Positions 468-21,722 of a stretch of DNA of 64,000 nt are shown here, piece by piece (the first letter of the stretch is position 1; each line of letters opens with the position of its first letter). The notes under the pieces were generated by a model. It had not been told where the DNA came from, searched no databases, and saw only the letters and a program-made list of their open reading frames with translations. Origin of the DNA: Okamejei kenojei (taxonomy: Eukaryota). Position numbers and translations under genes: made by a program. The stretch is taken from assembly GCA_035221665.1 (NCBI GenBank), contig CM069148.1:35030001-35094000 (forward strand), read 5' to 3'.

Positions 468-1635
468 AACAGGTGCAGGAATAGGCCATTCAGCCCTTCA
501 AGCCAGCACCACCATTCAATATGATCATGGCTGGTCATATAAAATCAGTACCTCGTTCCTGCTTTATCCCCATATTCCTTGATTCCTTTAGCCCTAAGAG
601 CTAAATCTAACTCTCTCTTGAAAACATCCAGTAAATTGGCCTCCATTGCCATCTGTGGCAGAGAATTCCCAGATTCACAATTCTCCGGGTGAAAACATTT
701 TTCCTCATCTCAGTCCTAAATGGCCTACCACTTATTCTTAAAATGTGACCCCTGGTTCTGGACTCCCCCAACATTGGGAACATTTTCCCTGCATTTAGCC
801 TGTCCAATCCTTTAAGAAGGATTATATGTTACTATTAGATCCCCTTTCATCCTTCTAAATTCCAGTGAATACAAGCCCAGTCAACCCATTCTTTCATCAT
901 ATGTCAGTCCCGCCGTCCCAGGAATTAACCTGGTGCACCTACGCTGCACTCCCTCAATAGCAGAAATGTCCTTCCTCAAATTACGAGAGCAAAATTGCAC
1001 ACAATACTCCAGGTGCGGTCTCACCAGGGACCTGTTCAACTGCAGTAGGACCTCCTTGCTCCGAGACTCAAATCCTCTCGCAATGAAGGCCAACATGCCA
1101 TTAGCTCTCTTCACTGCCTGCTGTAACTGCATGCTTACTTTCAGTGACTGATGTACAAGCACACACAGGTCATGGTGCACCTCCCCTTTTCCTAATCTGA
1201 CACCAGTCAGATAACAATCTGCCTAACCTGTTCTTGCCACCAAAGTGAATAACCTCACATTTATCCACATTATACTGCATCTGCCTTGCGTCTGCCCACT
1301 CACCTGTGGAATTCTATGGAATTCTCTGTGGAATTCTCTGCCTCAGAGGGCGGTGGAGGCAGGTTCTCTGGATGCTTTCAAGAGAGAGCTAGATAGGGCT
1401 CTTAAAAATAGCGGAGTCAGGGGATATGGGGAGAAGGCAGGAACAGGGTACTGATTGGGGATGATCAGCCATGATCACATTGAATGGCGGTGCTGGCTCA
1501 AAGGGCCAAATGGCCTACTCCTGCACCTGTTGTCTATTGTCACCCAACTTATCCGTGTCACCCTGCAGCCTCATAGCATCCTCATTACAGCTCTCACAGC
1601 CACCCTGCTTTGTGTCATTCGCAAACTTGGAAATT
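468..1635 (-). mobile_element. CR1 (HER1-like) LINE 3' fragment, interrupted at 1305-1539
   Basis: Degenerate RT C-terminal peptides (VRPHLEYCVQF; SKFANDTK) plus CR1 3' tail. Confidence 0.9.
1305..1539 (+). mobile_element. CR1 3' end nested antisense in the CR1 above
   Basis: LWNSLPQRAVEA peptide plus tail ending ctattg; TCACC duplicated at 1300-1304 and 1540-1544. Confidence 0.85.
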
Positions 1636-3039
1636 TTCAGACTCTGCCACAGCTGGGTCAGCGGGTGCTTGCCCGGGGAGCTGTGTAGTGGGGAGGATTT
1701 GCGGTGCACTCTTTTGGCTGAGCTTCCAAGTGCTTCAAAAAGATTTGAGATTCTCAGTCCCACCCTGAATGCTTCATCACTATTTAGAACAGTCACTGGC
1801 CAAAGGTTTCCGCATCCCGCCTTGAGTGTGTCTGATGCTCATCTCTCGCTCGCCCCCGAAGATCGAGAACCGGAGGGAGGAGAGAGTCAGAGACACCAGG
1901 GGACGCTGGACAAAGGGACGGTAGGAGGAGGACTGGAGGGGGGGAGCTAACCTCAGGTATCTTTAAAGTCGGCTGTGGGAGGCGGACCCTAAGGCACGAA
2001 GGCCGAAGGACCGGAGAGGAGAGGGAAGGGTCGATGGCGAACTGTATGCGGGGGAGAGTCAGTCGGGCCGAGGACGGGCCGCAGAGAGACAGCGTGCTGA
2101 GGTTGGGCCGCCAGTAACAAGGAGGGACCCAGCAGGGCGAGAGACTGCTGAGAACTAAGAAAACCATCGGGATTCGAATGATTACTTTCTTAACTTCGCC
2201 GGTGCCAGATACGTGGCGACTCTTTGCGCGCTTTGTGTATTGTATGCAACAACAAAGAATTTCACTGCACCTAGTCACATGTGACAATAAAGTACCATTG
2301 AATCAATAAGGTTGTTTTTACCACGGAGAAAGGCATGAAGACTAGGGAACTTTGGAATGTTAATGGCGATGAATGGCGGGTGAACAGTCTATGTTACAGT
2401 CGAGGAGGTGCTGGATGTCCTAAAAGGTATGAACATAGATAAATCTCCCAGACCTGATCAGGTATATCCCAGGATGCTGCAGGAAGCTAGAAGGGAAATT
2501 GCAGGAGAACTGGCTGAGTTATATTGATTGATTAATTGATTGAAAGAAACAGCATGGAAACAGGCCCTTTGGCCCACCGAGCCCATGCCGTCCATTGATC
2601 ACCCGTTCACAATAGTTCTATATTGTCTCAATTTCTCAACCACTCGCTATACACTAGGAACAATTTTACAGAGTCCGATTAACTTACACACCCGCACGTC
2701 TTTAAGATGTTGGAGGAAACCGGGGCACCCGGAGGAAAAGCGAGCAAGCAAGAGGGATATTAGATAAGAGCAAGCAAAAGTGGCGTCTTGGTTGGCATGG
2801 ACGAGTTGTGCGGAGAAGATTTTTTCGATGCTTTGTGACTCTATGTTACATTTTTTCAAAGAAGTTTTAAGAACACCCTTGAAATATTTCCACCTGGCAC
2901 CTGGTAATCTTTGCCATTACAGTGAAGCACTCGGAGTAGAAGTGGGAGCTGGGTTTCAGATATGCAAATAAAATGGTACACACACACACACACAATGGAG
3001 CTGAATAAGTGTAATTTATTGAATCTGATCTCCCCGTTG

Positions 3040-3478
3040 CTAAACACTTTGATTCTCCTTCCCATTCTCACACTGATCTCCTCCATTGTCAGTGAGGTTA
3101 AATGCAAGTTGGAGGAACAGTATCTTATATTTTGCTTGGGCAGCTCACAGCCTAGTGGTATGAATATTGATTTGTCTTCTTAAACTTAAAGTAACCCCAG
3201 CATTCCCTCTGTCTCTCTATCTCTCCACTACCCAAGTCACACCAGCTTTTCATTTTCACCCTACACCCTAACAATGGCCTGTTTCCTTTATCATCGTTAC
3301 TTTTTTGCATATCTTTCATTCATTGTTCTTTATCTCTCTACATCATCGTCTATATCTCTCATTTCCCTTTTCCCTAAGTAGTCTGAAGAAGGGTCTCGAC
3401 CCAAAACGTCACCCGTTCTTTCTCTCCAGAGATGCTGCCTGTCCCGCCGAGTTACTCCAAGCTTTTTGTGTCTATCTT
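3040..3478 (+). mobile_element. Penelope-like element 3' end (ORF C-terminus plus hammerhead-like terminus)
   Basis: SEVKCKLEEQYLIFCLGSSQPSGMNID resembles the end of the Penelope GIY-YIG domain (E..I..L....P.G.N). It is followed by CTGAAGAAGGGTCTCGACCCAAAACGTC at 3383. Confidence 0.75.
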
Positions 3479-5344
3479 AAGTGTAATTAAGATCTCACTG
3501 CTGTGAATGTCAACTCCAGGAGAGGACACTGACATCAGTCGGGTTATGCTACAAATACCTTGGATACTTTGCGGAGAGTGCATATGAGGTATTGATTCAT
3601 TGTTTGAAATATTGGACAATACAGTTGTTTGATATATTCTGACAAAGCACTCAATGACAAATCACCCTCACACAAGAATAAGACAATGTAATTCCATGAC
3701 ACAAAGTATTGGAGTAATCCTATGGATCAGGCAGCATCTCTGGAGAACATTGATAGGTGACATTTCAGGTAGGGTCCAAAAAAGGGTCCCAGCCCGAAAC
3801 ATCACCTGTGCATCTTCTCTAGAGATGCTGCCTGACCCACTGAGTTACTCCAGCATTTTGTGACTATCTTCGAGTTACTCCAGCTCTCTCCGTTCCTGCA
3901 ACTGGAAGCATGACACGCTGCGTCAGCTCATGGGATAACCTGATGGAAGTGGAGCGTGGTGCAGTGGGAACCCTGCACAGTGACTAAGCAACCGAGACAC
4001 GCTTTGCCAGAGCGCTCTCCCCGATGCTGTTTTTCTGCTGTCCATTGCTGCGCTGCTTGCCACCATCAACACGAGCGCAGGCCTCGATCCGCTATAACCT
4101 AAATCCATTATAAAGAGGTCTATAACAGTGAGGGTTTTACTGTACACTGTCAGTCTTAAACAACAGAAATTCGGATACAGCACCTGTGTCAAAATGTACT
4201 ATCTCGAGTAGACTGGCACAACTTGTGCATTAAATAAACTGCACATGGGGACAATTGCCTGAATGCACACAGGAATTCAGAGAAGCAGATCTAACTTAGC
4301 AACCAGGCTGGTAACTGCAATCCACAAACTAGTCTAACTGCAAGTTCCAAGATCTTGCATAAAACACACCATACATAAAATAACCTTAATATTAGTCTCA
4401 CAAAACTGGTAAATAAATTAGCCAAATCTGCAGGACTCTTCTCAAAGGCGCACCTTCGGCATTAACCAAGGGCATGAAGGACCGGTTTGGCTCCAATAGC
4501 CAACTCTGAATAAACATCGCCCATTGCTGCTCTCCAGAGATGCTGATTGTCCCGCTGAGTTACTCCAGCATTTTGTTTCTATTTTCCGTGTAAATTCATC
4601 GTCCCTCACCAACAATTGGCCGATTATAGAATCACCCAGCCGGAGGTGAACTGTCGTCAGTCCTGATTTGTCCTGGTCTTCTCATGCTTCCAGTTTCCAA
4701 CCACCCCAACCTACAATCAGTCTGAAAAGTCACCTGTCCATTTTCTCCAGAGATGCTACCTGACCCGCTGAGTTCTCCAGTATTTGTGTCTATCTTCGGT
4801 GTAAACCAGTGTCTGCATCGTTTTTATTACATTTTAACCCAGATTTAATGAAGCAATTCAATGTCGACAGGGTCAAGTGCTGCAAATGTAATGACGTGGA
4901 ATGTTCCCCAACCCAAAAGAGATTTCTCTCATTTTAAGTAATCCCTGCATTCCTTCTCTCCTACCTACCCCATCCTAGTCATCTTACTAGTTCTAATGTT
5001 TGCATCCTTGTATCTCTTCATTATCTCCACTTCCCCAGCCAACAATGGGCCATTTTGTGCTCCCCCCCCCCCAGCCTCAGTCATGTGTTACCGGCCCTGT
5101 TTTGTTCTGGCCTTTTCTTACCCCTGGTTCCCTCCCCCTATTTCTCAGTCTGAAGAAGGGTCCAGACCTGAAATGTCACCCATCCTTTCGCCAGAGATGC
5201 TGCCTGACCCGTTGAGTTACTCCAGCACTTTGTGTCTTTCTTAGAGACATTATTATGTGTTGTTCAAATTAGTGATATGCAACACAACATTCCCGGAGCA
5301 TACTTTATTACAGTGAGGTAAACCACAATCTATTGACACTGTAC

Positions 5345-5548
5345 CTTGTTCTTCAGGACTGTCTGCCTCCCCTATTGGATTGCCCTCCAAATGCACAAAG
5401 GGGAAATTCTGAATCTCAGGAGGCACCAATCGCAGACTATTGTTCTGCAGAGCAAGTCTTGACAAGTTGGGGAGGTCTGCAAGGCTTGCCAGGACCGTTA
5501 CTAGTTGATTGCTGTGCAGATGCAATTCCCCAAGAGATGTCATGTTTG
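5345..5548 (-). CDS. PIDD1: PIDD1 coding exon 3 (last LRRs); gene continues beyond the left end
   Basis: ANMTSLGELHLHSNQL...PFVHLEGNPIGEA matches human LHSNLL...PFVRLQGNPLGEA. cctgcAG acceptor, GTACAG donor, 204 nt. ZU5/death-domain exons not found in 1-5344. Confidence 0.92.
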
Positions 5549-5685
5549 CTGCAGGCAGGAATATCAAGGTTTGTGCCACATATAAATGTTTTTTCAAATA
5601 TATTATTGCCACAACTATTACACTACACCAGCATCTAAAATATTGGAATCTGCACCAAAATCTTAAAAATTAAAGCATATTAAAA

Positions 5686-5716
5686 ATATATATATATATA
5701 TATATAAATATATATA
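5686..5716. repeat. (TA)n microsatellite
   Basis: Read directly; (CA)n tracts also at ~2978-2994 and ~6846-6866, (TG)n at ~12864-12881. Confidence 0.9.
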
Positions 5717-6268
5717 GCAAGTGATAAACATTAAACAAGCTTCTAACCTGCGATTTAGGTGCTAGTTCAAACAATCAATGATCCTGTCAAAACATTATTT
5801 TTTTAAATTCCTATCTTGTCAGTGAAAGATATTACATATACCAAATTCATTCGAAAACTGAGAGCGATCATACTATTCTGTAATAAAAATTCAATTCAAC
5901 CCTTTTTGCACATTATTATCTCAACATTTTCACTGATTTCAACAGCTTAATATTCTGTAATAAAAAGGAACCACAGATGCTGGTTTATACCAAAGATAGA
6001 CAAAAATGCTTAAGTAACTCAGTGGGTCAGGCAGCATCTCTTTAGAAAATGGATAAGTGACGTTCCAGTTCATGAGCCTTCTTTAATTCTGACCCGAAAC
6101 ATCACCTATCCATGTACTCCAGAGATGCTGCCTGACCCGCTGAGCCACTCTAGCAATTTGTGTCTCTCTTTCCCATAATATTCTGCATGATCTTACGTTA
6201 ATAGGCTATTCGAGATTTCAAGTTATATCTGCACTCCAGTAATCAGAGTTGTTGTCCAATTAACTTAC

Positions 6269-6682
6269 CAAGTGAGGATGGGAGAGTTTTCAGTCGATTC
6301 CCTGAAAGGTCTATCCAGGTACAACTGCAGAGGTTCCCTATCTCGTCGGGAAGCAATTCCAGTTCGTTTTCGGACAAGTCTGCTCTCTGAAGCGCTACAA
6401 GTTCACCAACGCTTGCGGGCAGCACCCTCAGCTGGTTTTTCATCAGGGAAAGAAAAGTCAGTTTTACCAGCTTGCCAATGCTGTCGGGCAGCGCAGCCAG
6501 CTTGTTGTGACTCAGCAAGAGCACCGTCAGCTCCTTTAACTCCGTCACACATTCAGGCAAAGAGGTGAAGCTGTTGAAGCTCAGATCCAAATGGGTCAAG
6601 TGCTGGAGATGTGTAAACTCCGCAGGCAAAGTTGTTACCAGACCAGGCAGACACATGCCATATTCATCCCATAGATGACCAC
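6269..6682 (-). CDS. PIDD1: PIDD1 coding exon 2 (leucine-rich repeats)
   Basis: GGHLWDEYGMCLPG...HLDLSFNSFTSLPECV...LLLSHNKLAALPDSIG...DLSGNRLKTLPSSL, LRRs collinear with human PIDD1. ttcactAG acceptor, GTAAGT donor, 414 nt, phase 1/1. Confidence 0.95.
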
Positions 6683-7118
6683 CTAGTGAAGTAAATGTAA
6701 CAGGTATTGAAAAAAGGTGCAATGCAGCATCGTATTCACAGTCCTTGGAAGTGTCCACATCCATTGATAATCACGCCGACAACAGATCTGTCGTAGTGAT
6801 AATTATCAATCGCAAACATTCTGACAGCCACACCCCCCCAATGTTCACACACACACACACACACACTAATTCAAAGAACATTATTACTTTTCGAAAAATA
6901 AACATGCATTTTTTACACCAATTCACTAGCCAATAAAAATTATACGTCATGAATCACAGTAGTTTAGAAATCAAATGTATTGGGGTGATAATCTATGATA
7001 AAGCTCATTTATACTACACCCAGAAAATTATATTACATGTAAATACAAAAATATTTAAAATGTGTACATTTAAATATAATGGATGAAACGGCTGCACAAG
7101 TAAACCTAGTTCCAGTAC

Positions 7119-7362
7119 CTTTAAGCACGAGTGATTTCAGCTGCCTTAGTTCAGGAATGATGGAAAGTGATGAACTGATCTCCTCCTCATTGCAGTTTAG
7201 CCGTAGAAACTCAATCTGTAGTAATTCCTCCCTGCGAGCATTGCACAGCACCAAAAAGTGCTTGGTGCCATTTGGATAGACGTCTAAATTCAGCCTGTTG
7301 TCTGCCAGGTACACCTCTGCCGCAGTGCCGGTGTCTGCCTCCCAAGATAACAACTCCGCCAT
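7119..7362 (-). CDS. PIDD1: PIDD1 coding exon 1 (ATG exon)
   Basis: MAELLSWEAD...YLADNRLNLDVYPNG...LLQIEFLRL...LKSLVLKG matches the PIDD1 N-terminus (human NRLSLDLYPGG...LLQVEFLRL...LRSLVLKG). ATG at 7362 in AAGATGG context; GT donor at 7118 (phase 1); upstream acceptors would start the exon at 7459 or 7454. Confidence 0.92.
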
Positions 7363-7530
7363 CTTCAACCATGGCTCAGCTGTGCGACGTGCGTGTTCCA
7401 ACACGCCAGGCAGACATTACATGTTTTTCACAACTGTTCTCCCTCAAGAATAGCCTGCACTGCAAATAATTGATAAAATAAGAAAGGCATAAGTTAACAA
7501 ACACGTTAGCTAATTGGTTCACTTCTAGGC

Positions 7531-7789
7531 CAGTGGTTGTCAAAGTGGGTGGTACTGGCCCCTGGGGGTCTGTGGGATTACCGAGGGGGTGATAAGAGGT
7601 AAGGGGTTGGCAGGGGGGCATTGGGCAAGAAAGGTGTCAGTGCGTCCTTGACATGCTTATAAGGCCGGTTGGTTGTTAGCTGCTGAGCGCTCAACTGACG
7701 TTCTCTTTTTTTGCTAAAATAGTATTTCTTGGAACTTTTCAAAGCTGTATCACTCAATCAAGACCATCCATCGCTTTGAGAATTTACTG
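7531..7789. mobile_element. Possible old hAT/Charlie-type MITE
   Basis: Ends CAGTGGTTGTCAAAG ... CTTTGAGAATTTACTG form imperfect TIRs; no 8-bp TSD visible. Confidence 0.35.
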
Positions 7790-7840
7790 AACAGTCACGT
7801 ACTGCATTTGAAATGAACCCAAGGTTATAAAGTAGATTCT

Positions 7841-8132
7841 GGGCGGCACAGTGGCGCAGCGGCAGAGTTGCTGCCTGCAGTGCCAGAGACTCGGGTTTAA
7901 TCCTGACTATGGGTGCTGTCTGCGCGGAGTTTGCATGTTCTCCCTGTGGCCGGATGTAGGTTTTAACCGGGTGCTCCGGTTTCCTCCCACATTCCAAAGA
8001 TGTGTAGGTTTGTCAGTTAAATTGTTCCTAGTGTGTAGGATAGTGCTAGTGTACAGGTGAGTGTTGGTCAACGCAGTCTTAGTGGGCCAATAGGCCGGTT
8101 TCCACACCGTACCTCTAAAGTAAACTAAACTA
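7841..8132 (+). mobile_element. tRNA-derived V-SINE (HE1-like)
   Basis: A-box/B-box head, V-domain GGAGTTTGCATGTTCTCCC...CTCCGGTTTCCTCCCAC, (AAACT)n tail. Confidence 0.85.
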
Positions 8133-8149
8133 GAAAGAACAATGGCTAA

Positions 8150-8250
8150 TTATCATCCATCAAGATCCCAGAATCGGCAAATAAATATGGTTACGGATCA
8201 AATGTTTTACATGTTGTTTGAGAGATAAATATTGGCCATTGGGGAAACAT
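8150..8250. mobile_element. Ancient Deu-domain SINE remnant
   Basis: caagatccca...gagataaatattggcca resembles the Deu domain of AmnSINE1/SacSINE1 (recalled consensus); similar remnant near 56225-56375. Confidence 0.45.
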
Positions 8251-8638
8251 TCATGTTTTAATTAGAGACTGAGAACTCTTTTAACACCACTCAAGGTACA
8301 TTTGAAAGATGACATTGCAATATTCTCTCTTTGTCGCAGCCTTTGTATCTCAGAGAAAGTTTACATTTATCTAACAACCTGTAACTCCCATTAAATTAAT
8401 CTGGACTATCAGTCTATTTTCAATCGGGCCTGCTTGCAACTCCCATCTAAACACGACTTGCATTTACAAAGCATCTACAATTTTAAACAATTTAAGAGGA
8501 TGTTATCAAACAAAGATTGAACTATTTAAAGAAACATTGAGACGTTTAGTCGAAAAGATGAGTTTTCCATTGTGTAAACTTTCTTTAAAACCTTGCCTCA
8601 CCTACCAACATGAAGTAATTGTAAAATTACTTGTGCAA

Positions 8639-8711
8639 AGCCACAACCAGCTGGCTGCATTGCCTGACAGCAATGGCAAGCTGGTAAAACTGACTTTTCT
8701 TTCCCTGATGA
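8639..8711 (+). repeat. Inverted partial copy of PIDD1 coding exon 2 (6440-6512)
   Basis: 67/73 nt identical to the reverse complement of 6440-6512; translates as SHNQLAALPDSNGKLVKLTFLSLM. Confidence 0.95.
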
Positions 8712-9020
8712 GAAAAATTGTAAATTGTGACTGACTTGTGTCGGCATCAGTGTTTATGGAGAGTAGTCAACAGTCTCTGTAGATTTCTGCAGTCAAAGCA
8801 TTTAGTGACGTTAAAATATGACAAAGCGACTGGAGTTGTTCCCTGCATTTTTCTTGAAGTTGTTGCTAGGTGAAGATCATGCCCATGAAACTCTAGATGG
8901 ATATAATTCATTTGATGATTCATAGAACAATTAAGTACAAGTTAAGCAGCAGGAAGACCCCATCTCCATTATCATGGTCAGGCTTCTCTATCTTCTTGAA
9001 GATAGCCGCAATTGTAGCAT

Positions 9021-9250
9021 ATGGTGGCACAGTGGTAGAGTTGCTACCTCACAATGCAGGAGACGCAGGTTTGATCCTGACCTCGGGTGCTGTCTGTACG
9101 GAGTTTGTGCGTTCTGCCCGTGACTGCGTGGGTTTTCTTTGTGGCGCTCCCGTTTCTGCCCAATTTCCAAAGACGTGCCGGTTTGTAAGTTAAGTAGCTT
9201 CAGTAAATTGGTCCGAGTGTGTAGGATGCGAAACTGGGATAACATAGAAC
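9021..9250 (+). mobile_element. V-SINE
   Basis: Same head and V-domain as 7841-8132. Confidence 0.8.
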
Positions 9251-9409
9251 CGGTGTCACCTATTCCTTTTCTCCAGAGATGTTGTCTGACCCGCTGAGTT
9301 ACTCCACCTTTTTGTGTCTATCTTTGGTTTAAACCATCATCTGCAGTTCCTCCCTACACAAGGACAAAGTCTGAGTTGTGCAGGTGTTTAGAGCATCATA
9401 TCGTGAGCA

Positions 9410-9715
9410 TGTTTACTCCCACCAGACTCAGGAAGATCTTCTTCCCGTCTGTTATCAGACTTTTGAACAGTCATTCCGTAAACTAGTGTATTGTCCGAAT
9501 AACCTCTACCCCATTGTTCACATAGACTTTGTCTCTGGAACTGATGCGCTACAATGCTGAGGACTATATTCTGCACCTTATATCCTCCCCTTTGCTTAAC
9601 CTATTGTATCTGAGTTTGGCTTGATTGTATTTATGTACATTATCCAATTTGATTGGATAGCATGAAAAACAGAGCTTTTCACTGTCGTTTGGTGAACGTG
9701 ACAATGATAAACTTC
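9410..9715 (+). mobile_element. Rex1/Babar-type LINE 3' end
   Basis: accagactcaggaagatcttcttccc... followed by a tail ending tttcactgt...tgacaat(g)ataaac. Confidence 0.55.
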
Positions 9716-11324
9716 GACCGAAACCACCAGATCCCAACTCCTAATGTGGAGTAAGGGCTTGCGTGCTTGTTCTGAAAGTAGCCTTGAGAGGGTGAAGAAC
9801 ATGCACATGTCATGGCTGTCAGTGAACCTCTTGCACTTTCTCTATTCACCATGTGTTCTTGACAGCTCTAATGTTCCGAAGGCTAATGTCTAGGGAGCCA
9901 GGACGCTGCTTCATGTTTCTAGGGTTTTTTTTTAATGCATTAAAGGCACAAATTAAATGCAAGTTATTGCAACACAAACCGCATACCGACACACCCTGCG
10001 AAGCTAAAATGCCCGATATTGCAAAGTACAACTGGGGATAAAGTCCCTTTAAGAAAACACCACACGACCTTCTTACCCAGGAAGTTACAGGGCAGAATTA
10101 TCCAAATATCATACACCTACCCTGACAATGGATTGATGCAAATCTAAATATGAAACAGTTTGCAATTTAACATCTACGATCGCTGTCCCCCACGGAAACG
10201 GAACGATGTATTCGGCCTGTGGAGACAAAAAATAAAGTAGAAAAAAATCTGTTCCTGATCATACGTCAGCACTGTACAGAAATGCGCCGGATGCAGAGGG
10301 AACTGGGAAGCTTGAAATAAAAGTTTTTCACGAGTTTAAGGCGCCCCGGATGGTTAGGTTTGAGTCACCGCTTTTTGCAGGAAGGGACCACACTGCTCTC
10401 TCGCCCAGTTTTTCTTTAACCGCCTTCGGGGAGACTATTCCCGCTCAATGGCGCTTTACCAGTTGCTGCATTCCATGGTTTGCAATTAACATTATCCAGA
10501 GTTAGGTTTGTTGCAGCTTCGCGACGTTTCTTGGTTCAAAACATTTCCGATCGAAGTCTTTTTCCTTCCTTGTTGTAAAGGGTCACCGGGCTGTTTGGTC
10601 GTCGTTATTTACTCGACCACGTAGTCGCATGCACTCACAGTGACAGATGCCTCCCACACACTCAAAGTTTGTATCATTCAAAAGAGGCTACAATGGTGCC
10701 TTGTCTGTGGAATGTATTAATACTTCAAATGTATCGACCCGACATTCCTAGGAATGTACAGACCGGACGATGCCACGAATACACAGAAAACCATTCACTG
10801 TTTTTGTCTTTCTATTTGAAAAAAATGAACTTATCTTTTTCAAATAAAAACAAAACTGCTTCAGGTGTGAACCATGTAAATAGCGCTCTGCATCTGAGCC
10901 CGGCGACAAGGTGACAGATGGCGATGCTTCAGATCAAGCTGAAGCTTCCGCGCCACTGGCTTTGCAAATAACCCGCTGGCATTCTTCAAACGGGAAACGA
11001 TCATTTAAACTGAAGATATTAATTTTTTTTAGCATTGAAATCCATTACTGATCGTGAATGACCTGTTTCGTTCACTCGCTTAAAGTACGTGTACACAGTC
11101 ACACACGTACAGTATGCACACACACGCATGCATAATTTTACTTCACTGTGCAAATACATTTTTTAAACTTACTGTGAATTTCCTGTACTAATATTCCTCT
11201 TGGTACATACATGACCCGTGTCTACCAATATCCAAAAATATCCAGGGATGCTACCTGACCGGCTGAGTTACTCCAGCATGTCGTGTCTTTCCAAAAATAC
11301 CAATTTTAGTGTTTTTTTTGTTGT

Positions 11325-11610
11325 TTAGAGATGCAGCATGGAAACAGGTCCTTCGGACTAGCGAGTCCACACTGACCATCGTTCATCCATTCACACCAGT
11401 TCTATGTTATCCCACTTTCTCATCCACTCCCTGCACGCTAGGGGAATATGCAGGAAACCGGAGCAGCCGGAGGAAACCCACGCGGTCACAGGGAGAACAT
11501 GCAAACTCCTCACCGACAGCACCCCAGAACAGGATCAAACATGGGTAAGAACAGGATCAAATCTGGTGCTGTGAGGCAGTGGCTCAACCATGTGCAGCAC
11601 AGCGCTGCCC
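11325..11610 (-). mobile_element. V-SINE
   Basis: Reverse complement of the V-SINE head and V-domain. Confidence 0.8.
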
Positions 11611-11910
11611 ATCCAAATTATAATTTTAAATTATAACATATTACATATGTTATAATTTACATATATTACAATTGGTTTCTAAGTTTGCAATATCACACTG
11701 TATTGCTAGACTCAACTAAATGGTGTTGAAAGAAGACAGTAAGTCAGGCAGCATCCGTGGAAGGAATGGGCAGGCGACCTTTTGAGTCGGGGTCCTTCAT
11801 CAGACAGATTTATTATTATTATTGCTGTGTAGCTGCAAATTACATTTTCTCTGATCTTCCCAAAATGCACTGAAATAGGGATATTAAATATGTCTTAGCA
11901 ATGACTTGTG

Positions 11911-12200
11911 ATGGCAATGTGGCGCAGCTGGAAGAGCTTCTGCCTCACAGTGCCAGAGACCCAGGCTTTGTCCTGACCTCCGATGCTATCTTTGTGGGGT
12001 TTTTTCACATTCACCCTGTGACTGCATGGGTTTCCCACATTCAAAAGGCATGCAGGTTTATAGGTTAATTAGCCTCTGAAAATTAGTGAGTAGGGTGTGA
12101 AAATGGGATTGCGTGGAACTAGCTTGTGGGCCATCAATGATTGGCATGGACTCGGTGGGCCACAGGGCCTGTTTCTATGTTGTATCTCTAAACTAAACTA
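11911..12200 (+). mobile_element. V-SINE
   Basis: tRNA head, V-domain, (AAACT)n tail. Confidence 0.8.
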
Positions 12201-12364
12201 AGTGCTTGATGAACTCAGTGGGTCAGGTAGCATCTGTGGAACAAATGGGCAGTTGACTCTTCAGGTCGGGTGCCTTCTTCACACTGATGCTGTTATTATT
12301 ATTATTATGGCAGATGAAGTTTTCTCTGATCTTCCCATGCGCACTGAAACAGAAGATTGAACGT

Positions 12365-12660
12365 TCATAACTCATAGAAGCACAATTAGGCCATCGAGAC
12401 TACTCTGCCATTCAATCATGAATTATCTCTTTCCCTCTCAACCCCATTCTCCTGCCTTCTCCCCATAACTCCTGACACCCTTACTCAAAAATCTGACAAT
12501 GTCTTAAAAAGTACCCAATGACGGCCTCCACAGCCGTCGGTGCCAATTAATTCCACAGATTCACCACCCTCTGTCTAAAGAAATTCCTCCTCATCTCCTT
12601 TCTAAAGGTATGTCCTTTTATCTGAGGCTATGCCCTTGTCCCTAGACTCTTCCACTGGTG
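12365..12660 (-). mobile_element. CR1 LINE 3' end
   Basis: Antisense of the CR1 tail seen at 36170-36610. Confidence 0.75.
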
Positions 12661-13169
12661 ACTAATGATGATAATGTTGAAAGAGATTGCAGTGTTTTAG
12701 TTTCTAAAGGTTCTTAGCAATTAATAAGTGTCTATCCCAATCAAACAAGAATGAAAGGCTTAAAAAATTCTGAGTTCAGACTCTGTCTTTACATGCTGAC
12801 TGCTTCACTGTGCAGAAAATTCATTTTTTAAATTTCAGAAATGAAATGCATTGAGAATGAAACGTGTGTGTGTGTGTGTGTCTGTATGTGTGAGGATACA
12901 CAAAATGCTGGGGTAACTCAGCAGGACAGGCAGCATTTCTGGAAAGAAGGAATGGGTGACGTGTCGAGTCGAGACCCTTCTTCAGCCATATACACACATT
13001 CCGTTTTGCTGCTCCAAGTACGAATTTCATTGTTCTGCCTGGGACATATGACACTAAAACAATCTTGACTCGCCTATCTCCTTCGCTCCTTAAAAATACC
13101 CTTGACTCTTGACCCCTTGTCACCAACTAAAATCTGCAGCAAACACCGACCAAAAGTTGTCTCCAAACT

Positions 13170-13555
13170 TCCAGCCAATGGGAGGCGGATGAGGATGCGG
13201 CCGTGCGATTGGTCGGGCTTGCGGACGGCGCGGTTGAAGTCCGAGATTGGCCAACGGGATGCGAGCTGCCGGCGCTGCTGGCTAATGGGGCGCGGGCAGG
13301 CGGGCGGGCGGCGCTGTTGGCCAATGGAGAGCCGGCGGGCGGCAACCGCGGCTGGCCAATGGAATACCAGCTGCCGGCGTTGCTGGCCAATGGAATACGA
13401 GCTGCCGGCGCTGCTGGCCAATGGGGCGAGGGCGGGCGGCGCTGCTGGCCAATGGGGCGCGGGCGGGCGGGCGGGCGGCGCTGTTGGCCAATGGGGCGCG
13501 GGCGGGCGGCGCATGCTCTTTATGTGCGCGGGTGAGGCCGCGGCTCTTTCTTTCC
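13170..13555 (+). promoter_or_regulatory. RPLP2: RPLP2 CpG-island promoter with CCAAT/GC-box array and TCT (5'TOP) initiator
   Basis: Very GC/CpG-rich. CCAAT at 13175, 13321, 13356, 13387, 13418, 13449, 13488; ATTGG at 13208 and 13246; many GGGCGG boxes; pyrimidine tract CTCTTTCTTTCC at 13544-13555, typical of ribosomal protein gene starts. Confidence 0.85.
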
Positions 13556-13636
13556 GGCGGTCGGAGCGGAGCGGAGTGGAGCGCGTGCGTGTGTGACCCG
13601 GCCTCTCCTCCTCCTCCTCCTCTCCAACGGCTCCGA
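13546..13636 (+). other. RPLP2: RPLP2 non-coding exon 1 (start approximate)
   Basis: Begins in the TOP tract and ends at CCGA|GTAAGT; vertebrate RPLP2 has a non-coding first exon. Confidence 0.8.
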
Positions 13637-14254
13637 GTAAGTCGGTCCGCCCGGCCCGCGCTCCCGCTTGACGGCGCCTCAGCCGCCTGCGTCCCCTCCC
13701 CTCCCCCGCGGGGCCCACGTTGCACCGGCGGCAGCGGCAGCAGCGTTGTATGGGGGGGGCGGGCAGAGCCTGAGGCCTACGGCCGGGGCCTGGTCGCTAG
13801 GAGCGGGTGCGGGGGACCCCCCGGCTCTGGACCGTTTTCATTGATGAGCGATCAGCAGGGGGGAGGCCGCTTGTCGGCGGGTTTAGTTTCGGCATACCAT
13901 GTGGGGCGGCGGCCGGGGCCTCCACCCGCTCCCTCCCTCCCTGCTGCCGCCGGCTCGGCGCTGCAACAACGTGGTGGCGTCGCCCAGCCCCAGGCCCCGA
14001 GCTCGACCGCCCGCCCGCCAGAGCGGGAATTGTGAAACGGGTGGAAAGGATAGGGGTTGAAGGTAGACAAACACGTTGGAGAAACTCAGCGGGCGAGGCA
14101 GCAGCATCTATGGAGCGAAGGAAATGGGAAACGTTACGGGTCGAGACCCTTCTTGATGGGATGGGAATCCAAATGGAGCACAGGGAAGGGGGGGGGGGTG
14201 TTTTGGGTTAATTTCCAAAAATTAAATGTTCATACCATTAAGCTCCAAGTGATT

Positions 14255-14680
14255 TTTGAAACCTGGTTTTGCATTCTATCCCTCTTGAAATAAACGTTGG
14301 CATTGCGTTTGCCTTCCTTACTACCGATTCGACTTGCAAATTAACTTTTTGGGAATCCTGCACCAACCAGTACACCTAGGTCCCTTTGCACCTCTGATTT
14401 CTGGATTATCTCCCCATTTAGAAAATAGTTTACGCCTTTATTCCTACTACCAAAATGCATCCTCACTTTGCTACACTATATTCCATCTGCCCACTTTCCC
14501 AACCTGTGCAAGGCCTTCTGCAGAGTCCCTGCTTTCTCTACACTACCTGCCTCTCCAATTTTCGTATCAACTGCAAACTTGGCCACACTTCAATCGCCTC
14601 ATCCAAATCATTTAATATACAACGTACAGAGTAGCGGCCCCAGCATCGACCCTTGCGGAACTCCGCTGGTCGTTGGCAGC
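14255..14680 (-). mobile_element. CR1 LINE RT fragment
   Basis: Antisense to GVPQGS.LGP and KFAVDTK RT motifs. Confidence 0.75.
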
Positions 14681-15329
14681 TAACAAGGACAAAGCTCAGT
14701 TATTGCCATGTACGTGAATATACTCAATGACTAAGCTTCCTTAACCCTATTGATTAACGAATTCCAAAGATTCACTAGCCCCTAGTTGAAGAGAGACACA
14801 AAATGCTGGTGTAACTCAACGGGACAGGCAGAAGCTCTGAAATGGGTGATGTTTTGGGTCGAGGCCCTTCTTCGGACAATGTTCTCCCTGGATGAACCAA
14901 TGACTCCTTGCTGACATCTGTTATCCTTGCTTCTGGTCAGTTCAACCAGGGGAATCAAGTCTACATACGTCCTGTCCACGTTGAGGGCAGGTGGCATTGA
15001 ATGCTCGATGTCAATGCGATGGGCAATTAATGGAGAGCATTGTGTTCTGTAATCATCCATCAGTTCTTATATATAACAGATATAAACAGCTTCATAAATG
15101 GACCTCAAGACTATTCTGAATTATTAAACTTGTATTTGTGGGATATCTTAGCCTGCAATGAGGATGATCATTCCTGATCTTGTTTTCTTCTGTGCAGCGT
15201 TGATCGGGTGTCCATATTTCTGTCGGTTCCATACATTTATGGCCTTTGACAATGAGGTTGGAATTGTAGCAAATAAAATTTGCATCCAAAAGATTAAACT
15301 AAACAAGCTCAACTTCTTCCTCTTTCAGG

Positions 15330-15452
15330 ATGCGTTACGTCGCAGCTTACCTCCTCGCTGTGTTGGGCGGCAATGAAGCCCCAGCTTCAAAGGACATTAA
15401 GAAGATTCTTGAGAGTGTTGGGATTGAAGCTGATGATGAGCGACTGAATAAG
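15330..15452 (+). CDS. RPLP2: 60S acidic ribosomal protein P2, coding exon 1
   Basis: MRYVAAYLLAVLGGNEAPASKDIKKILESVGIEADDERLNK; tttcAG acceptor ending 15328, GT donor 15453. Confidence 0.98.
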
Positions 15453-15536
15453 GTATCGTGTCTACTCGTGCACATTTTGATCGGTGTTGATTGAATTCCT
15501 AATTTCCTTAAGTAATGGTTTTACATTGAATTTCAG

Positions 15537-15585
15537 GTGATCAGTGAGCTGAAAGGCAAGAATGTGGGCGATGTCATCGCTGCTG
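15537..15585 (+). CDS. RPLP2: RPLP2 coding exon 2
   Basis: VISELKGKNVGDVIAA(G); 49 nt, AG / GTGAGT. Confidence 0.97.
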
Positions 15586-16547
15586 GTGAGTAGCACGTTA
15601 AGCAATGACTCCGTGACTTTCTCTGAATCAACTGGGTTGGGGGTGTATTGCAGATCAGGTTCACCTTTCAGTTATGAATCTATGCAGAAAATCCCTGTGG
15701 AACCAGTAAAAATGTGGTCCAAAAATTGTGAGTGACTGTTAATGCCATTTTCAGGTTAGAACAGCAACTGCGATTTTCATTAAACGCTACATTTACAAGA
15801 ATTCTCTGCCTATTAAAGGTGGGCAGGTTTTCCTATTGCTCTGTTTTGTAATCTCCATCGCTCCCCGATAAGACTGTTGGTCCCCCTGCCAACCAATCTA
15901 CCTGCTTCAATTATTACATTAGAAAAGGCCTTGTACTTGCCTGAATAGACCATTTGGCCACTCTGATCGTCTCTGCCACTGATTGAGATTGTGGCAGATC
16001 CATTTGTAGCCTTAACTTTGCATTCCTATAGTAAGCCATTCTCATATGGCTCTCTACCAACTCATGGGTTTTGCTTCCATTGAGGTAGCGTTCTGAAGCA
16101 TCTGAGAGTAAAAATCAACCCATGTGTTGACCCTTCTTTTAAGCAGTAACTGCCTAGTTCTCGATTCCTCAATGGAAATTGAGAAAGCTTCCTCATTACG
16201 TCCAGCCCCTCAGGATCTTGTGTGTTTCATTCCAGTCAAACAAAAGGCGGCAATTTTGTTCTAGCTTTTGAAAATGTCCATAAATGGTACCAGGGATCTA
16301 GGTTAGAAACTTGGACATGGGTGAGCATGGTTGAGTGGTTACATTGTGTACAAAATGCAATTTTAAGGATTGCACTTGGCACAGCATGTAGAGTGTAAAC
16401 GAGGTTTTATTGCAAAATTGAGACATGAATGGTAGGTATATTTTAAAGCCATGTACAGTTATGCATTTAAACAATGATGGCCAACTATATGGTTTCAAAG
16501 GTGCACTAAAACATATTGGTTCTGTTTATTGAGCACATGGGTGGGGC

Positions 16548-19702: not shown

Positions 19703-21722
19703 ACTCTTTGCTTCCTGTCTGCCTATCCATGTCAGTACCCTACCCCAATACCATGTGCTCTAATTTTGCACACTAATTTCTTGTGTGGGACCTTGGCAAA
19801 GGCTTTTTGAAAGTCCAGATGCGCCACATCTACTCTCTTATCCATTCTACTTGTTACATCCTACTGATGTAAGGCTATCTGGTCTATAATTCCCTGTTTT
19901 CTCTCTCCCTCTTTTCTTAAAAAGTGGAGTTACATTAGCTACCCTCCAGTCCACAGGAACTTATCCAAAGTCTATAGAACATTGGAAAATGATAACCAAT
20001 GCATGCATGATTTCTAGGGCCACCTCCTTGAGTACTCCGGGATGCAGACCATCAGGCCCTGGGGATTTATCTGCCTTCAGACCCAGCAGTTTACCTAACC
20101 ATTTCCTGACTCATGTGGATTCCCTTCAGTTCCTCCCTCCCACTAGATCTTCGTATTTCTGGGAGATTGTTTGTCTTCCTTAATGAACACAGAATCAAAG
20201 TACTATTGTACTTGTACACGCAACTGTTCTGCCATTTCCTTGTTTCCCATTATAAATTCACCTGTTTCTGATTGTAAGGGTCCTACATTTGTCTTCATGT
20301 CAAATCAATTGTGTTGCTTGATATGTTTTATTCCTTGTTGGAAGGCACTGAAGAAATGGGGTGTATTTCTATTCCTTAAGTTCTGGTGGCAGCGATCACC
20401 CAGAGTAGTGACTAAGTTGATACCAAACTTGCAGTGGAAATGTGCACCTTTTCAAGAGGTTATTACAGGCTTCCACATGGGTTGTATGAAACAAGAGGCA
20501 GTAGGCTTGCCAATAAGTGAGTTCGGTATTCCAAAAAACGGAAGGAATCATGGGATTTGTCAAAGGTCGAACGCTATAAATAAAAATAGAGCAAAGTGCT
20601 GTAGATACAGTGAGTATCGGCTGGAGACGTCTGGATCGACGCCGGCCCCCAGGCTGGGCAAGGAAGGGGGAGTAGGAGGAGGCTGCTGGCAGCAGTGTGG
20701 GCAGTTCAGGCAGCAGCTCCAGCGGGCATCCGGCCTACCCATGGCCGGCAGGAGCCCATCCACAGACTCTCCGACCAGGACGACTCCAGCAGCAGTGGCT
20801 CCGAGTCGCCTGTCTTCGAGCAGGGCCGGCGGCTGCCCATCTTCAGCGGGATCTCGGTGTCAGACTGAGGGGGAAGTGGGTGGAGGGCTGCCGGTCAGCA
20901 GAGGGACTGGCAGCTGGAGCCACCGGCTGCAAGTCTAGAGCCGCCCCGGACAGGGATGGGACACCGTGGAGGGGACGGAACGGCCCAGCAGCAACTCAAC
21001 AGTGGCTGCAGCAACGGAGAGCCGGGCCTGACCCCGACCACGAACGAAACGCAAGCCTGCACACAATGCAGCACCACCGTTGATGAGACTGTTTATAGCT
21101 AGTGGCCTATGACCTGGGCATGCGGAGTCAGGATACCAAACTCGGTTATAAAACTAAGTGAACAAGCTTGTATAAAAACCAACCATGGCTTGTGCTCAAT
21201 TATTGCTCCAAGTTGCTGCATGCGGAACCACAAGGCCTTTTGCCCTTCTAGGCAGAGATAGAAAGCCGATGACCTGCAGTTATTCACCTTGTCAAATGTT
21301 CTTAGTTGCAGTCTAACAGTGTAGCAAGCATATTTATATGCTTTACTATATACTTATTTACTACATAGTAATTCTTAAATGATGGTGTGTTGGGAGTTAA
21401 ATAACCATTTTGCAGAATTTACTTTTTTGAGTTGAGTTACTGAAAAGGAGCAATCCAGAAAGATTTGGGAAATGTTCAAGACTACTGGCAAGATTAGCAA
21501 GGCCTTAGAATTTGTTTCCTGGTTCTGTTGAAGTTGAAGACTGGTTTGGAGTGCAGCCACAGCGTTGCACATCTTCAAAAGGTTGGAGGGAGCTAACATT
21601 TATAAACTTGGTAACACTCATGGTTGGAAAATTGTGGGACCTTTGTGATTCTGAAATGTGTAGTTTCCTCAATAGTCAGGCTGTCATACATTTAGTTGTT
21701 TGTGTGAAGTAACCTGGGCAAA

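What the first reader, a model, noticed from the sequence alone, without database searches (positions are those of the whole stretch)
6440..8711. PIDD1 carries an antisense copy of its own LRR exon about 2.1 kb upstream: candidate exon-pairing (editing/splicing) element
Seen: 8639-8711 matches the reverse complement of coding positions 6440-6512 at 67/73 nt, including a perfect 38-nt run (8674-8711). It sits in unique sequence with no flanking exon or splice-site context. Seen: the ATG exon has a 3' splice site, so an upstream exon exists. Inference: if that exon lies beyond 8711, the pre-mRNA can fold a ~73-bp exon-intron duplex (two of the six differences become G-U pairs) that loops out the ATG exon. 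Established: such duplexes act as editing-complementary sequences for ADAR and can change exon inclusion. Edited adenosines in GKLVKLTFLSLM would recode K, T and M. A neutral template-switch duplication is equally possible.
Basis: partly seen in the sequence, partly recalled or inferred. Interest (0 to 1): 0.7.

Follow-up and report, generated by a model that had tools for sequence, protein, structure and literature searches.

The report
Backwards PIDD1 exon copy in skates
In a skate genome a 77-base piece of a PIDD1 coding exon sits copied backwards 2 kb upstream; four related species share it and it is predicted to pair with the exon in unspliced RNA, but it changes about as fast as the DNA around it, so it is likely an old, harmless DNA-repair duplication rather than an editing or splicing switch.

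Summary
The inverted copy is real: 67/73 as stated, 70/77 extended, two copies in the genome, and in place in 4 of 4 relatives laid, so no assembly artefact. It is old: it keeps the Gln codon of rays and sharks where skate exons now have Lys. No compensation is seen: the exon moved away from the copy, the copy gained three changes within the sampled species, and copy-versus-flank divergence does not differ (Fisher p 0.21-0.50, low power). Two spliced skate PIDD1 contigs show no recoding. Such local inverted two-copy pieces recur here (3 others verified in 1.46 Mb) and fit repair-mediated duplication (PMC2671141). Best reading: a neutral repair scar that can form an incidental duplex (0.72). 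TSS and editing remain untested. The scan noted the same kind of object in several other genomes.

The parts
8639..8715 (+). 77-nt copy of PIDD1 coding sequence; reads in mRNA sense on +, so antisense within the minus-strand PIDD1 transcript
   Evidence: 70/77 to 6436-6512; two places in genome; in place in 4 of 4 relatives
8674..8711 (+). 38-nt run identical to the exon
   Evidence: separate 38-nt contig with 0 other letters in runs X13 and X16 (records 12 and 30)
6436..6512 (-). donor segment, inside the LRR exon
6269..6682 (-). PIDD1 LRR-coding exon
   Evidence: tblastn of P0010, splice sites, homologs named PIDD1, Pfam LRR
7119..7459 (-). PIDD1 exon with the start codon (ATG at 7362), looped out by the predicted duplex
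8617..8625 (+). 9-nt direct repeat AATTGTAAA, left copy, inside an 8-bp hairpin (8613-8632); 13 nt of filler follow before the copy
   Evidence: 471 of 19,976 random flank pairs share a 9-mer; hairpin z -1.56, not significant
8716..8724 (+). 9-nt direct repeat, right copy, abutting the duplicated segment
8602..8704 (-). predicted cryptic cassette exon (acceptor AG 8706-8705; donors at 8630 and 8601), holding 66 nt of the antisense copy; use not shown
   Evidence: home-made matrices from 18 acceptors and 18 donors: acceptor 11.2 vs 1.2-10.5 for real sites left out in turn, donors 7.0 and 6.9; such pairs 0.14 per 10 kb of strand; best of 169 AGs in 7480-10000
9901..11100 (-). CpG-rich stretch, candidate PIDD1 promoter and non-coding first exon (inferred)
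   Evidence: CpG o/e 0.82-1.11 vs 0.27-0.59 over 7501-9000; several donor-like sites

Best explanation
The 77-nt piece is an inverted local copy of PIDD1 exon sequence that likely arose once, before the sampled skates diverged, when a DNA break or stalled fork about 2.1 kb upstream was repaired by copying from the nearby exon, and it has likely drifted as ordinary intron since. Shown: the copy, its uniqueness, its presence in four relatives, the direction of several changes. Inferred: the repair origin (no empty site seen), the intronic position (promoter placed by CpG content), and neutrality (low-power test). If intron 1 is still unspliced when the LRR exon is made, the predicted 70-bp duplex can form and may pick up low, unselected A-to-I editing, like the many repeat-derived duplexes in this gene.
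For: Size, single second copy and 2,127-nt spacing fit repair-mediated duplication (PMC2671141, which also reports an exon copied inverted into its own gene's intron without coding constraint). The class recurs in this genome: 5 other two-copy inverted pairs within 10 kb in 1.464 Mb, 3 of 5 confirmed two-copy genome-wide, 2 of 5 repeats: about 2 per Mb, 95% interval 0.4-6. Age and lack of compensation: the copy encodes Q where 7 of 7 non-skate elasmobranch proteins have Q and 5 of 5 skate proteins plus the window have K. In one search, 8659 and 8660 differ from all four relatives (own-lineage changes in the copy, 2/77 vs 13/713 in flanks, p 0.65); 8673 keeps the exon letter only in X10 and X14; contig ends imply an exon change at the position paired with 8698 in X10 and X14 with no change in the copy (inferred). 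Copy vs flank differences: at least 3/77 vs 34/713, 2/77 vs 36/711, 2/77 vs 38/683; one-sided Fisher p 0.50, 0.26, 0.21. X16 has a 20-nt deletion abutting the copy. 20 of 33 other inverted pairs within 3 kb in the gene are predicted stronger. No recoding in 2 of 2 spliced Logan contigs.
Against: All three copy rates are numerically below the flank rates, and the 38-nt core shows no listed fixed change in X13, X14, X16 where a rough hand tally expects 2.4-3.7 (P(0) 0.03-0.09; P(<=1) 0.12-0.30 if a low-depth variant in X14 counts). Power is low: half the flank rate cannot be told from the full rate, the three comparisons share the own-lineage changes, and 34 rows were not shown. It is the only one of 34 inverted pairs with an arm in a coding exon (by eye). 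No empty site was seen, so breakpoint hallmarks are unproven. The acceptor at the junction is unusually strong.
Confidence: 0.72

Rival explanations
1. The copy has been co-opted as an editing-complementary sequence: it pairs with the LRR exon in pre-mRNA and guides ADAR to recode codons in GKLVKLTFLSLMK, or alters inclusion of the looped-out ATG exon.
For: Duplex predicted with probability near 1; kept in 4 of 4 relatives with an unbroken shared core of 32-38 nt (inferred from contig ends); point estimates of divergence are below flank; an A-C mismatch falls on an exon Lys codon at 6439.
Against: The exon changed without compensation (Q to K; inferred change at the partner of 8698); the other two A-C mismatches put the A on the intron side; the 6439 mismatch is at the frayed end (pairing 0.1-0.2 beyond it); no majority recoding in 2 of 2 spliced contigs. 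In human Alu pairs editing decays with a scale of about 800 nt and is weaker across exon-intron borders (PMC4066801), about 7% of the maximum at 2.1 kb (an extrapolation).
Confidence: 0.09
2. The insertion created a new 3' splice site. A 74- or 103-nt cassette with 66 nt of antisense sequence is sometimes spliced into the 5' UTR, where it would fold back on the coding region around the start codon and lower PIDD1 output; pairing with the LRR exon would mask the acceptor and tune this.
For: Acceptor scores above all 18 real acceptors left out in turn and above 168 other AGs of the region; acceptor-donor pairs this strong occur 0.14 per 10 kb. No listed change hits the AG or the 8601 donor in four relatives.
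Against: The matrices are crude and the test was after the fact. Two full-length spliced PIDD1 contigs (3,165 and 4,471 nt) run unbroken through the donor segment, whereas DNA contigs break at the shared run, which argues against abundant inclusion in those samples (inferred; their species and RNA origin are not on record). Long near-perfect duplexes are purged from mature mRNA (PMC7006430, abstract). X16 has lost the 8630 donor.
Confidence: 0.08
3. Same neutral outcome, different origin: a short RNA-templated insertion, primed at the A-run of the PIDD1 message by a LINE reverse transcriptase or during RNA-templated repair, with the 9-nt direct repeat as a target-site duplication.
For: The copy ends at an A5 run of the exon, and a 9-nt direct repeat flanks it (2.4% of random flank pairs).
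Against: The copy lies within one exon, so no splice junction proves an RNA template; 13 nt separate the left repeat from the copy; landing 2 kb from the source is unlikely for a retrocopy, and in PMC2671141 none of 39 proximal cases had a poly(A/T) tail while 5 had a target-site duplication (Table 1).
Confidence: 0.1
4. Assembly artefact.
For: None.
Against: Seven differences from the exon; contigs from four other organisms bridge the right junction (4 of 4) and the left junction (3 of 4 in one record; X14 by overlapping records).
Confidence: 0.01

Closest known systems
Repair-mediated duplications, proximal class (Pace et al. 2009, PMC2671141; read: parts 1-2 of 8 and keyword passages, no supplements)
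   Same: [quoted passage not shown]
   Different: Found in a cartilaginous fish, a group not among the species they surveyed; only part of an exon; not inside a transposon; no empty site to confirm the breakpoints.
Intronic editing-complementary sequences of ADAR recoding sites (GRIA2 Q/R type; recalled, not read here)
   Same: An intronic stretch complementary to a coding exon, predicted to form a long duplex in pre-mRNA.
   Different: No editing shown, no excess conservation, no compensatory change; plainly derived by recent-looking duplication of the exon; lies upstream with another exon in the loop.
Inverted SINE pairs as promiscuous ADAR substrates (Bazak et al. 2014, PMC4066801; abstract and section 12)
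   Same: An incidental long-range duplex about 2 kb apart across exon-intron borders, likely edited weakly if at all.
   Different: One arm is unique coding sequence, so any editing would recode; 77 nt rather than about 300.
Exonisation of antisense SINEs (recalled)
   Same: The antisense strand of the inserted piece supplies a pyrimidine tract and AG.
   Different: The source is the gene's own exon, so inclusion would make a self-complementary mRNA; use of the site is not shown.

Membership tests
Repair-mediated duplication (PMC2671141) | Inserted segment of at least 50 bp with exactly one other copy in the genome | tested here: met
   77 nt, 2 places in the own genome; the search skips very common words
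Repair-mediated duplication (PMC2671141) | Donor more than 50 bp and less than 5 kb away on the same chromosome | tested here: met
   2,127 nt between arms
Repair-mediated duplication (PMC2671141) | No added poly(A/T) tail | tested here: inconclusive
   An A5 run ends the copy, but the donor has an A5 run at the same place
Repair-mediated duplication (PMC2671141) | Breakpoint hallmarks (microhomology, filler, deletion) defined against an empty orthologous site | tested here: inconclusive
   No empty site in 4 of 4 relatives; a 9-nt direct repeat and 13-nt filler are suggestive only
ADAR editing-complementary sequence (features recalled) | Can form a stable duplex with the exon | tested here: met
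   -129.5 kcal/mol; pair probabilities near 1 in a 2.55-kb fold
ADAR editing-complementary sequence (features recalled) | Lies in the same pre-mRNA as the exon | tested here: inconclusive
   Acceptor before the ATG exon and CpG-rich stretch beyond 9900; no RNA laid, start site unmapped
ADAR editing-complementary sequence (features recalled) | A-to-I editing in the paired exon | tested here: inconclusive
   No majority recoding in 2 of 2 spliced Logan contigs; minor editing would be invisible; no raw RNA reads were listed
ADAR editing-complementary sequence (features recalled) | Conservation above intron background, or compensatory exon-intron changes | tested here: not met
   Fisher p 0.21-0.50; exon and copy changes unpaired; low power
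Exonised antisense insertion | Functional-looking acceptor and donor around the insert | tested here: met
   Acceptor 11.2, donors 7.0 and 6.9 on home-made matrices
Exonised antisense insertion | Junction reads showing inclusion | not tested
   No RNA run was laid; unbroken spliced contigs argue against abundant inclusion (inferred)

The most novel reading that the evidence does not exclude
A repair-born antisense copy of PIDD1's own exon has become a self-targeting switch in skates: it supplies a new strong 3' splice site whose use puts a 66-nt antisense arm into the 5' UTR, folding the mature mRNA around its start codon, while pairing with the LRR exon in the pre-mRNA masks that site or recruits ADAR. 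A gene would then be regulated by an exonised mirror image of its own coding sequence.
Probability: 0.07. Interest if true: 0.7.

Novelty: new member of a known kind. Interest (0 to 1): 0.2.

Why it matters
As a neutral scar it matters little: one more local repair duplication, though dated to before the skate radiation and in a lineage where the class was not among the species surveyed in PMC2671141. It does show the raw material from which exon-intron editing duplexes could arise in one step. If the duplex or the cryptic cassette proved used, it would be a datable birth of an editing or splicing control element on a p53-pathway gene, testable by deleting 77 bases.

Tried and rejected
Assembly artefact: rejected. 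Relic of a larger inverted or paralogous PIDD1 copy: rejected; tblastn of the whole 878-aa protein over 1.46 Mb finds the intact gene and only this fragment, and the genome search finds 2 places for the exon stretch. Member of a repeat family: rejected. Coding exon on the + strand: the frame is closed by stops on both sides and carries I-to-N and K-to-R changes at positions constant in skates and rays. The 38-nt perfect run as proof of selection: not significant. Flanking hairpins: z -1.56 and -1.38, not significant. p53 element near the copy: none in the scan of 5000-14500 except weak sites at 5450 and 11342. Of 17 DNA or untyped holders with share above 0.2, 4 were laid; organisms A, B and G were not. 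No relatives of this stretch among earlier scan windows. Literature searches with no paper: PIDD1 + elasmobranch; editing complementary sequence + inverted duplication + exon; A-to-I + RNA editing + skate + shark. Searches listed nothing on this locus (listings only). The first donor scan used too strict a cut-off and was repeated; the acceptor matrix held one misaligned site and was rebuilt. Pfam missed the 41-aa RPLP2 piece; PDB sequences named it.

Full report
Observation. Window 8639-8711 is the reverse complement of 6440-6512 at 67 of 73 bases; blastn extends this to 70 of 77 (6436-6512 vs 8715-8639, E 1.6e-23). The own genome (2.76 Gb) holds the stretch at exactly these two places. The flanks 8150-9000 have no other hit in 1.464 Mb of the same genome.

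The gene. The donor lies in an exon at 6682-6269 on the minus strand whose product is 98% identical to an 878-aa protein clustered with PIDD1 of Leucoraja, Amblyraja and Rhinoraja with LRR, ZU5, peptidase S68 and death domains. tblastn finds the whole gene over about 60 kb, mostly left of the window, and the 77-nt piece as the only extra hit. The start codon is at 7362 in an exon beginning at an AG acceptor (7459). RPLP2 lies head to head (CpG island 13201-14100). Between 7501 and 9000 CpG o/e is 0.27-0.59, against 0.82-1.11 at 9901-11100, where donor-like sites exist. I infer a non-coding first exon beyond 9900, or at the RPLP2 island, and so an intronic copy (my odds about 0.85). This is not mapped: no RNA was laid.

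Can it pair? Yes on paper: -129.5 kcal/mol against -154.8 for a perfect duplex, and 69 in-register pairs with probabilities near 1 in a fold of 6300-8850. The seven differences give two G-U pairs, one A-G, one U-U and three A-C; in two of the A-C pairs the A is intronic, and the third (exon 6439) is at the frayed end. The gene holds 34 inverted pairs of 50 nt or more within 3 kb; 20 of the other 33 are predicted stronger. This one alone has an arm in a coding exon (by eye). In human Alu pairs editing falls off with a scale of about 800 nt and is weaker across exon-intron borders (PMC4066801, abstract and section 12).

Age and direction of change. The copy encodes HNQL; the exon encodes HNKL. 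Q is found in 7 of 7 non-skate elasmobranch proteins shown and K in 5 of 5 skate proteins (Callorhinchus has L). So the copy predates the Q-to-K change on the skate stem, and the exon left the copy behind without compensation. I-to-N and K-to-R are changes in the copy, as I and K are kept in skates and rays. Three of the other four differences are at or beside the donor's two CpGs.

Relatives. Logan contigs of four other organisms (X10, X13, X14, X16; 4 of the 17 holders with share above 0.2) were laid on 8200-8990. All four carry the copy in place: the right junction is bridged in 4 of 4, the left in 3 of 4 by one record and in X14 by overlapping records. No empty site. All four have the exon letter at 8659 and 8660, so these changes arose on the window's own lineage (2/77 vs 13/713 such sites in the flanks; p 0.65). 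At 8673 only X10 and X14 keep the exon letter in the copy. Contig ends, read with the 31-letter word size, imply that exon and copy share 8674-8711 exactly in X13 and X16, that in X10 and X14 the exon differs at the partner of 8698 while the X14 copy does not, and that X14 has two alleles of the copy, one variant inside the 38-nt core; these are inferences, and the X14 records have depth 4.4-5. X16 has a 20-nt deletion at 8617 abutting the copy. Putting every unlisted difference in the flanks (34 rows were not shown), the copy differs at 3/77, 2/77 and 2/77 against 34/713, 36/711 and 38/683 for X10, X13 and X16: one-sided p 0.50, 0.26, 0.21 (X14 was not put through this test). Against my reading: all three estimates are lower in the copy, and the core has no listed fixed change in three runs where a rough tally expects 2.4-3.7 (P(0) 0.03-0.09, P(<=1) 0.12-0.30). 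Half-rate evolution cannot be excluded. Strong constraint with compensation is not seen.

Editing. Two full-length PIDD1 proteins from short Logan contigs (3,165 and 4,471 nt, hence spliced; inferred) match genome-derived skate proteins across the paired segment: no majority recoding in 2 of 2. Minor editing is untested.

Background. In 1.464 Mb (six blocks) there are 6 inverted and 15 direct two-copy pairs (at least 40 nt, at least 80%, within 10 kb), ours included. Of the 5 other inverted pairs, 3 are two-copy genome-wide and 2 are repeats: about 2 per Mb, or 1,200-16,500 per genome. In PMC2671141, 8 of 824 human donors overlapped coding exons (Table 2), so some tens of genes per genome should carry such a piece by chance (my arithmetic). 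The scan itself noted like objects in HCFC1, PRAG1, MYO5B, Dachsous and slit of other genomes, mostly judged debris, and one conserved case in an insect receptor (unchecked notes, seen after my own tests, not counted as support).

Origin. Size, single copy and distance match proximal repair-mediated duplications (PMC2671141; parts 1-2 of 8 and passages; supplements not read), including an exon copied inverted into its own gene. A 9-nt direct repeat flanks the copy with 13 nt between it and the left end (2.4% of random flank pairs); the right end falls in an A-run present in both donor and flank. Without an empty site this is suggestive. Papers on polymerase-theta and synthesis-dependent end joining were seen as listings only.

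An unexpected feature. On the PIDD1 strand the junction of copy and right flank makes an acceptor (AG at 8706-8705) scoring 11.2, above all 18 real acceptors left out in turn (1.2-10.5), with donors at 8630 (7.0) and 8601 (6.9); such pairs occur 0.14 per 10 kb. Inclusion would place 66 antisense bases in the 5' UTR and fold the mRNA around its start codon. The matrices are crude and the test came after the fact. The two spliced contigs are unbroken where DNA contigs break at the shared run, which argues against abundant inclusion (inferred), and long near-perfect duplexes are purged from mature mRNA (PMC7006430, abstract). I give regulated use about 0.07.

Verdict. A real, old, skate-wide local inverted duplication of exon sequence, most likely a neutral repair product able to form an incidental duplex (0.72). 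Functional editing guide 0.09, used antisense cassette 0.08, RNA-templated origin 0.10. Searches found no paper on this locus. New member of a known kind; interest 0.2.

Noticed in passing
window 7372-7211 (-): An out-of-frame upstream ATG in strong context (GCCATGG) 10 nt before the PIDD1 start opens a 53-codon frame overlapping the main frame; two more upstream ATGs at 7422 and 7417. Possible translational damping; conservation not checked.
   Followed up: partly
window 20632-20868 (+), in an RPLP2 intron: A GC-rich stretch ends in the frame ...SPVFEQGRRLPIFSGISVSD-stop, which resembles the C-terminus of ZFP36-family proteins (recalled, not tested). It is a dispersed repeat: 40 of 40 scored matches at 86-91%, 362 candidates. 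Possibly a gene fragment carried by a transposon.
   Followed up: partly
window 13150-13640: RPLP2 promoter CpG island with a run of CCAAT and GC boxes (seven CCAAT at 13175-13488), head to head with PIDD1; may be bidirectional. The same gene order in human is recalled.
   Followed up: no
window 5450-5469: A p53-element-like site (2 mismatches, no spacer) inside the PIDD1 coding exon 5548-5345.
   Followed up: no
window 3724-3870 and 5993-6138: Inverted repeat-element pair (78%, -200 kcal/mol) flanking the single exon 5548-5345; a candidate for exon skipping or circular RNA, stronger on paper than the duplex studied.
   Followed up: no
L065:3650-3758 with its partner 1.1 kb on; L021:8001-8041; L130:8700-8747: Three further two-copy local inverted duplications in the same genome.
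   Followed up: partly
window 8725-8733: With the letter that X10, X13 and X14 read at 8732, the right flank would match a 9-mer of the exon about 30 nt before the copied part, a possible second templated patch; seen by eye, weak.
   Followed up: no
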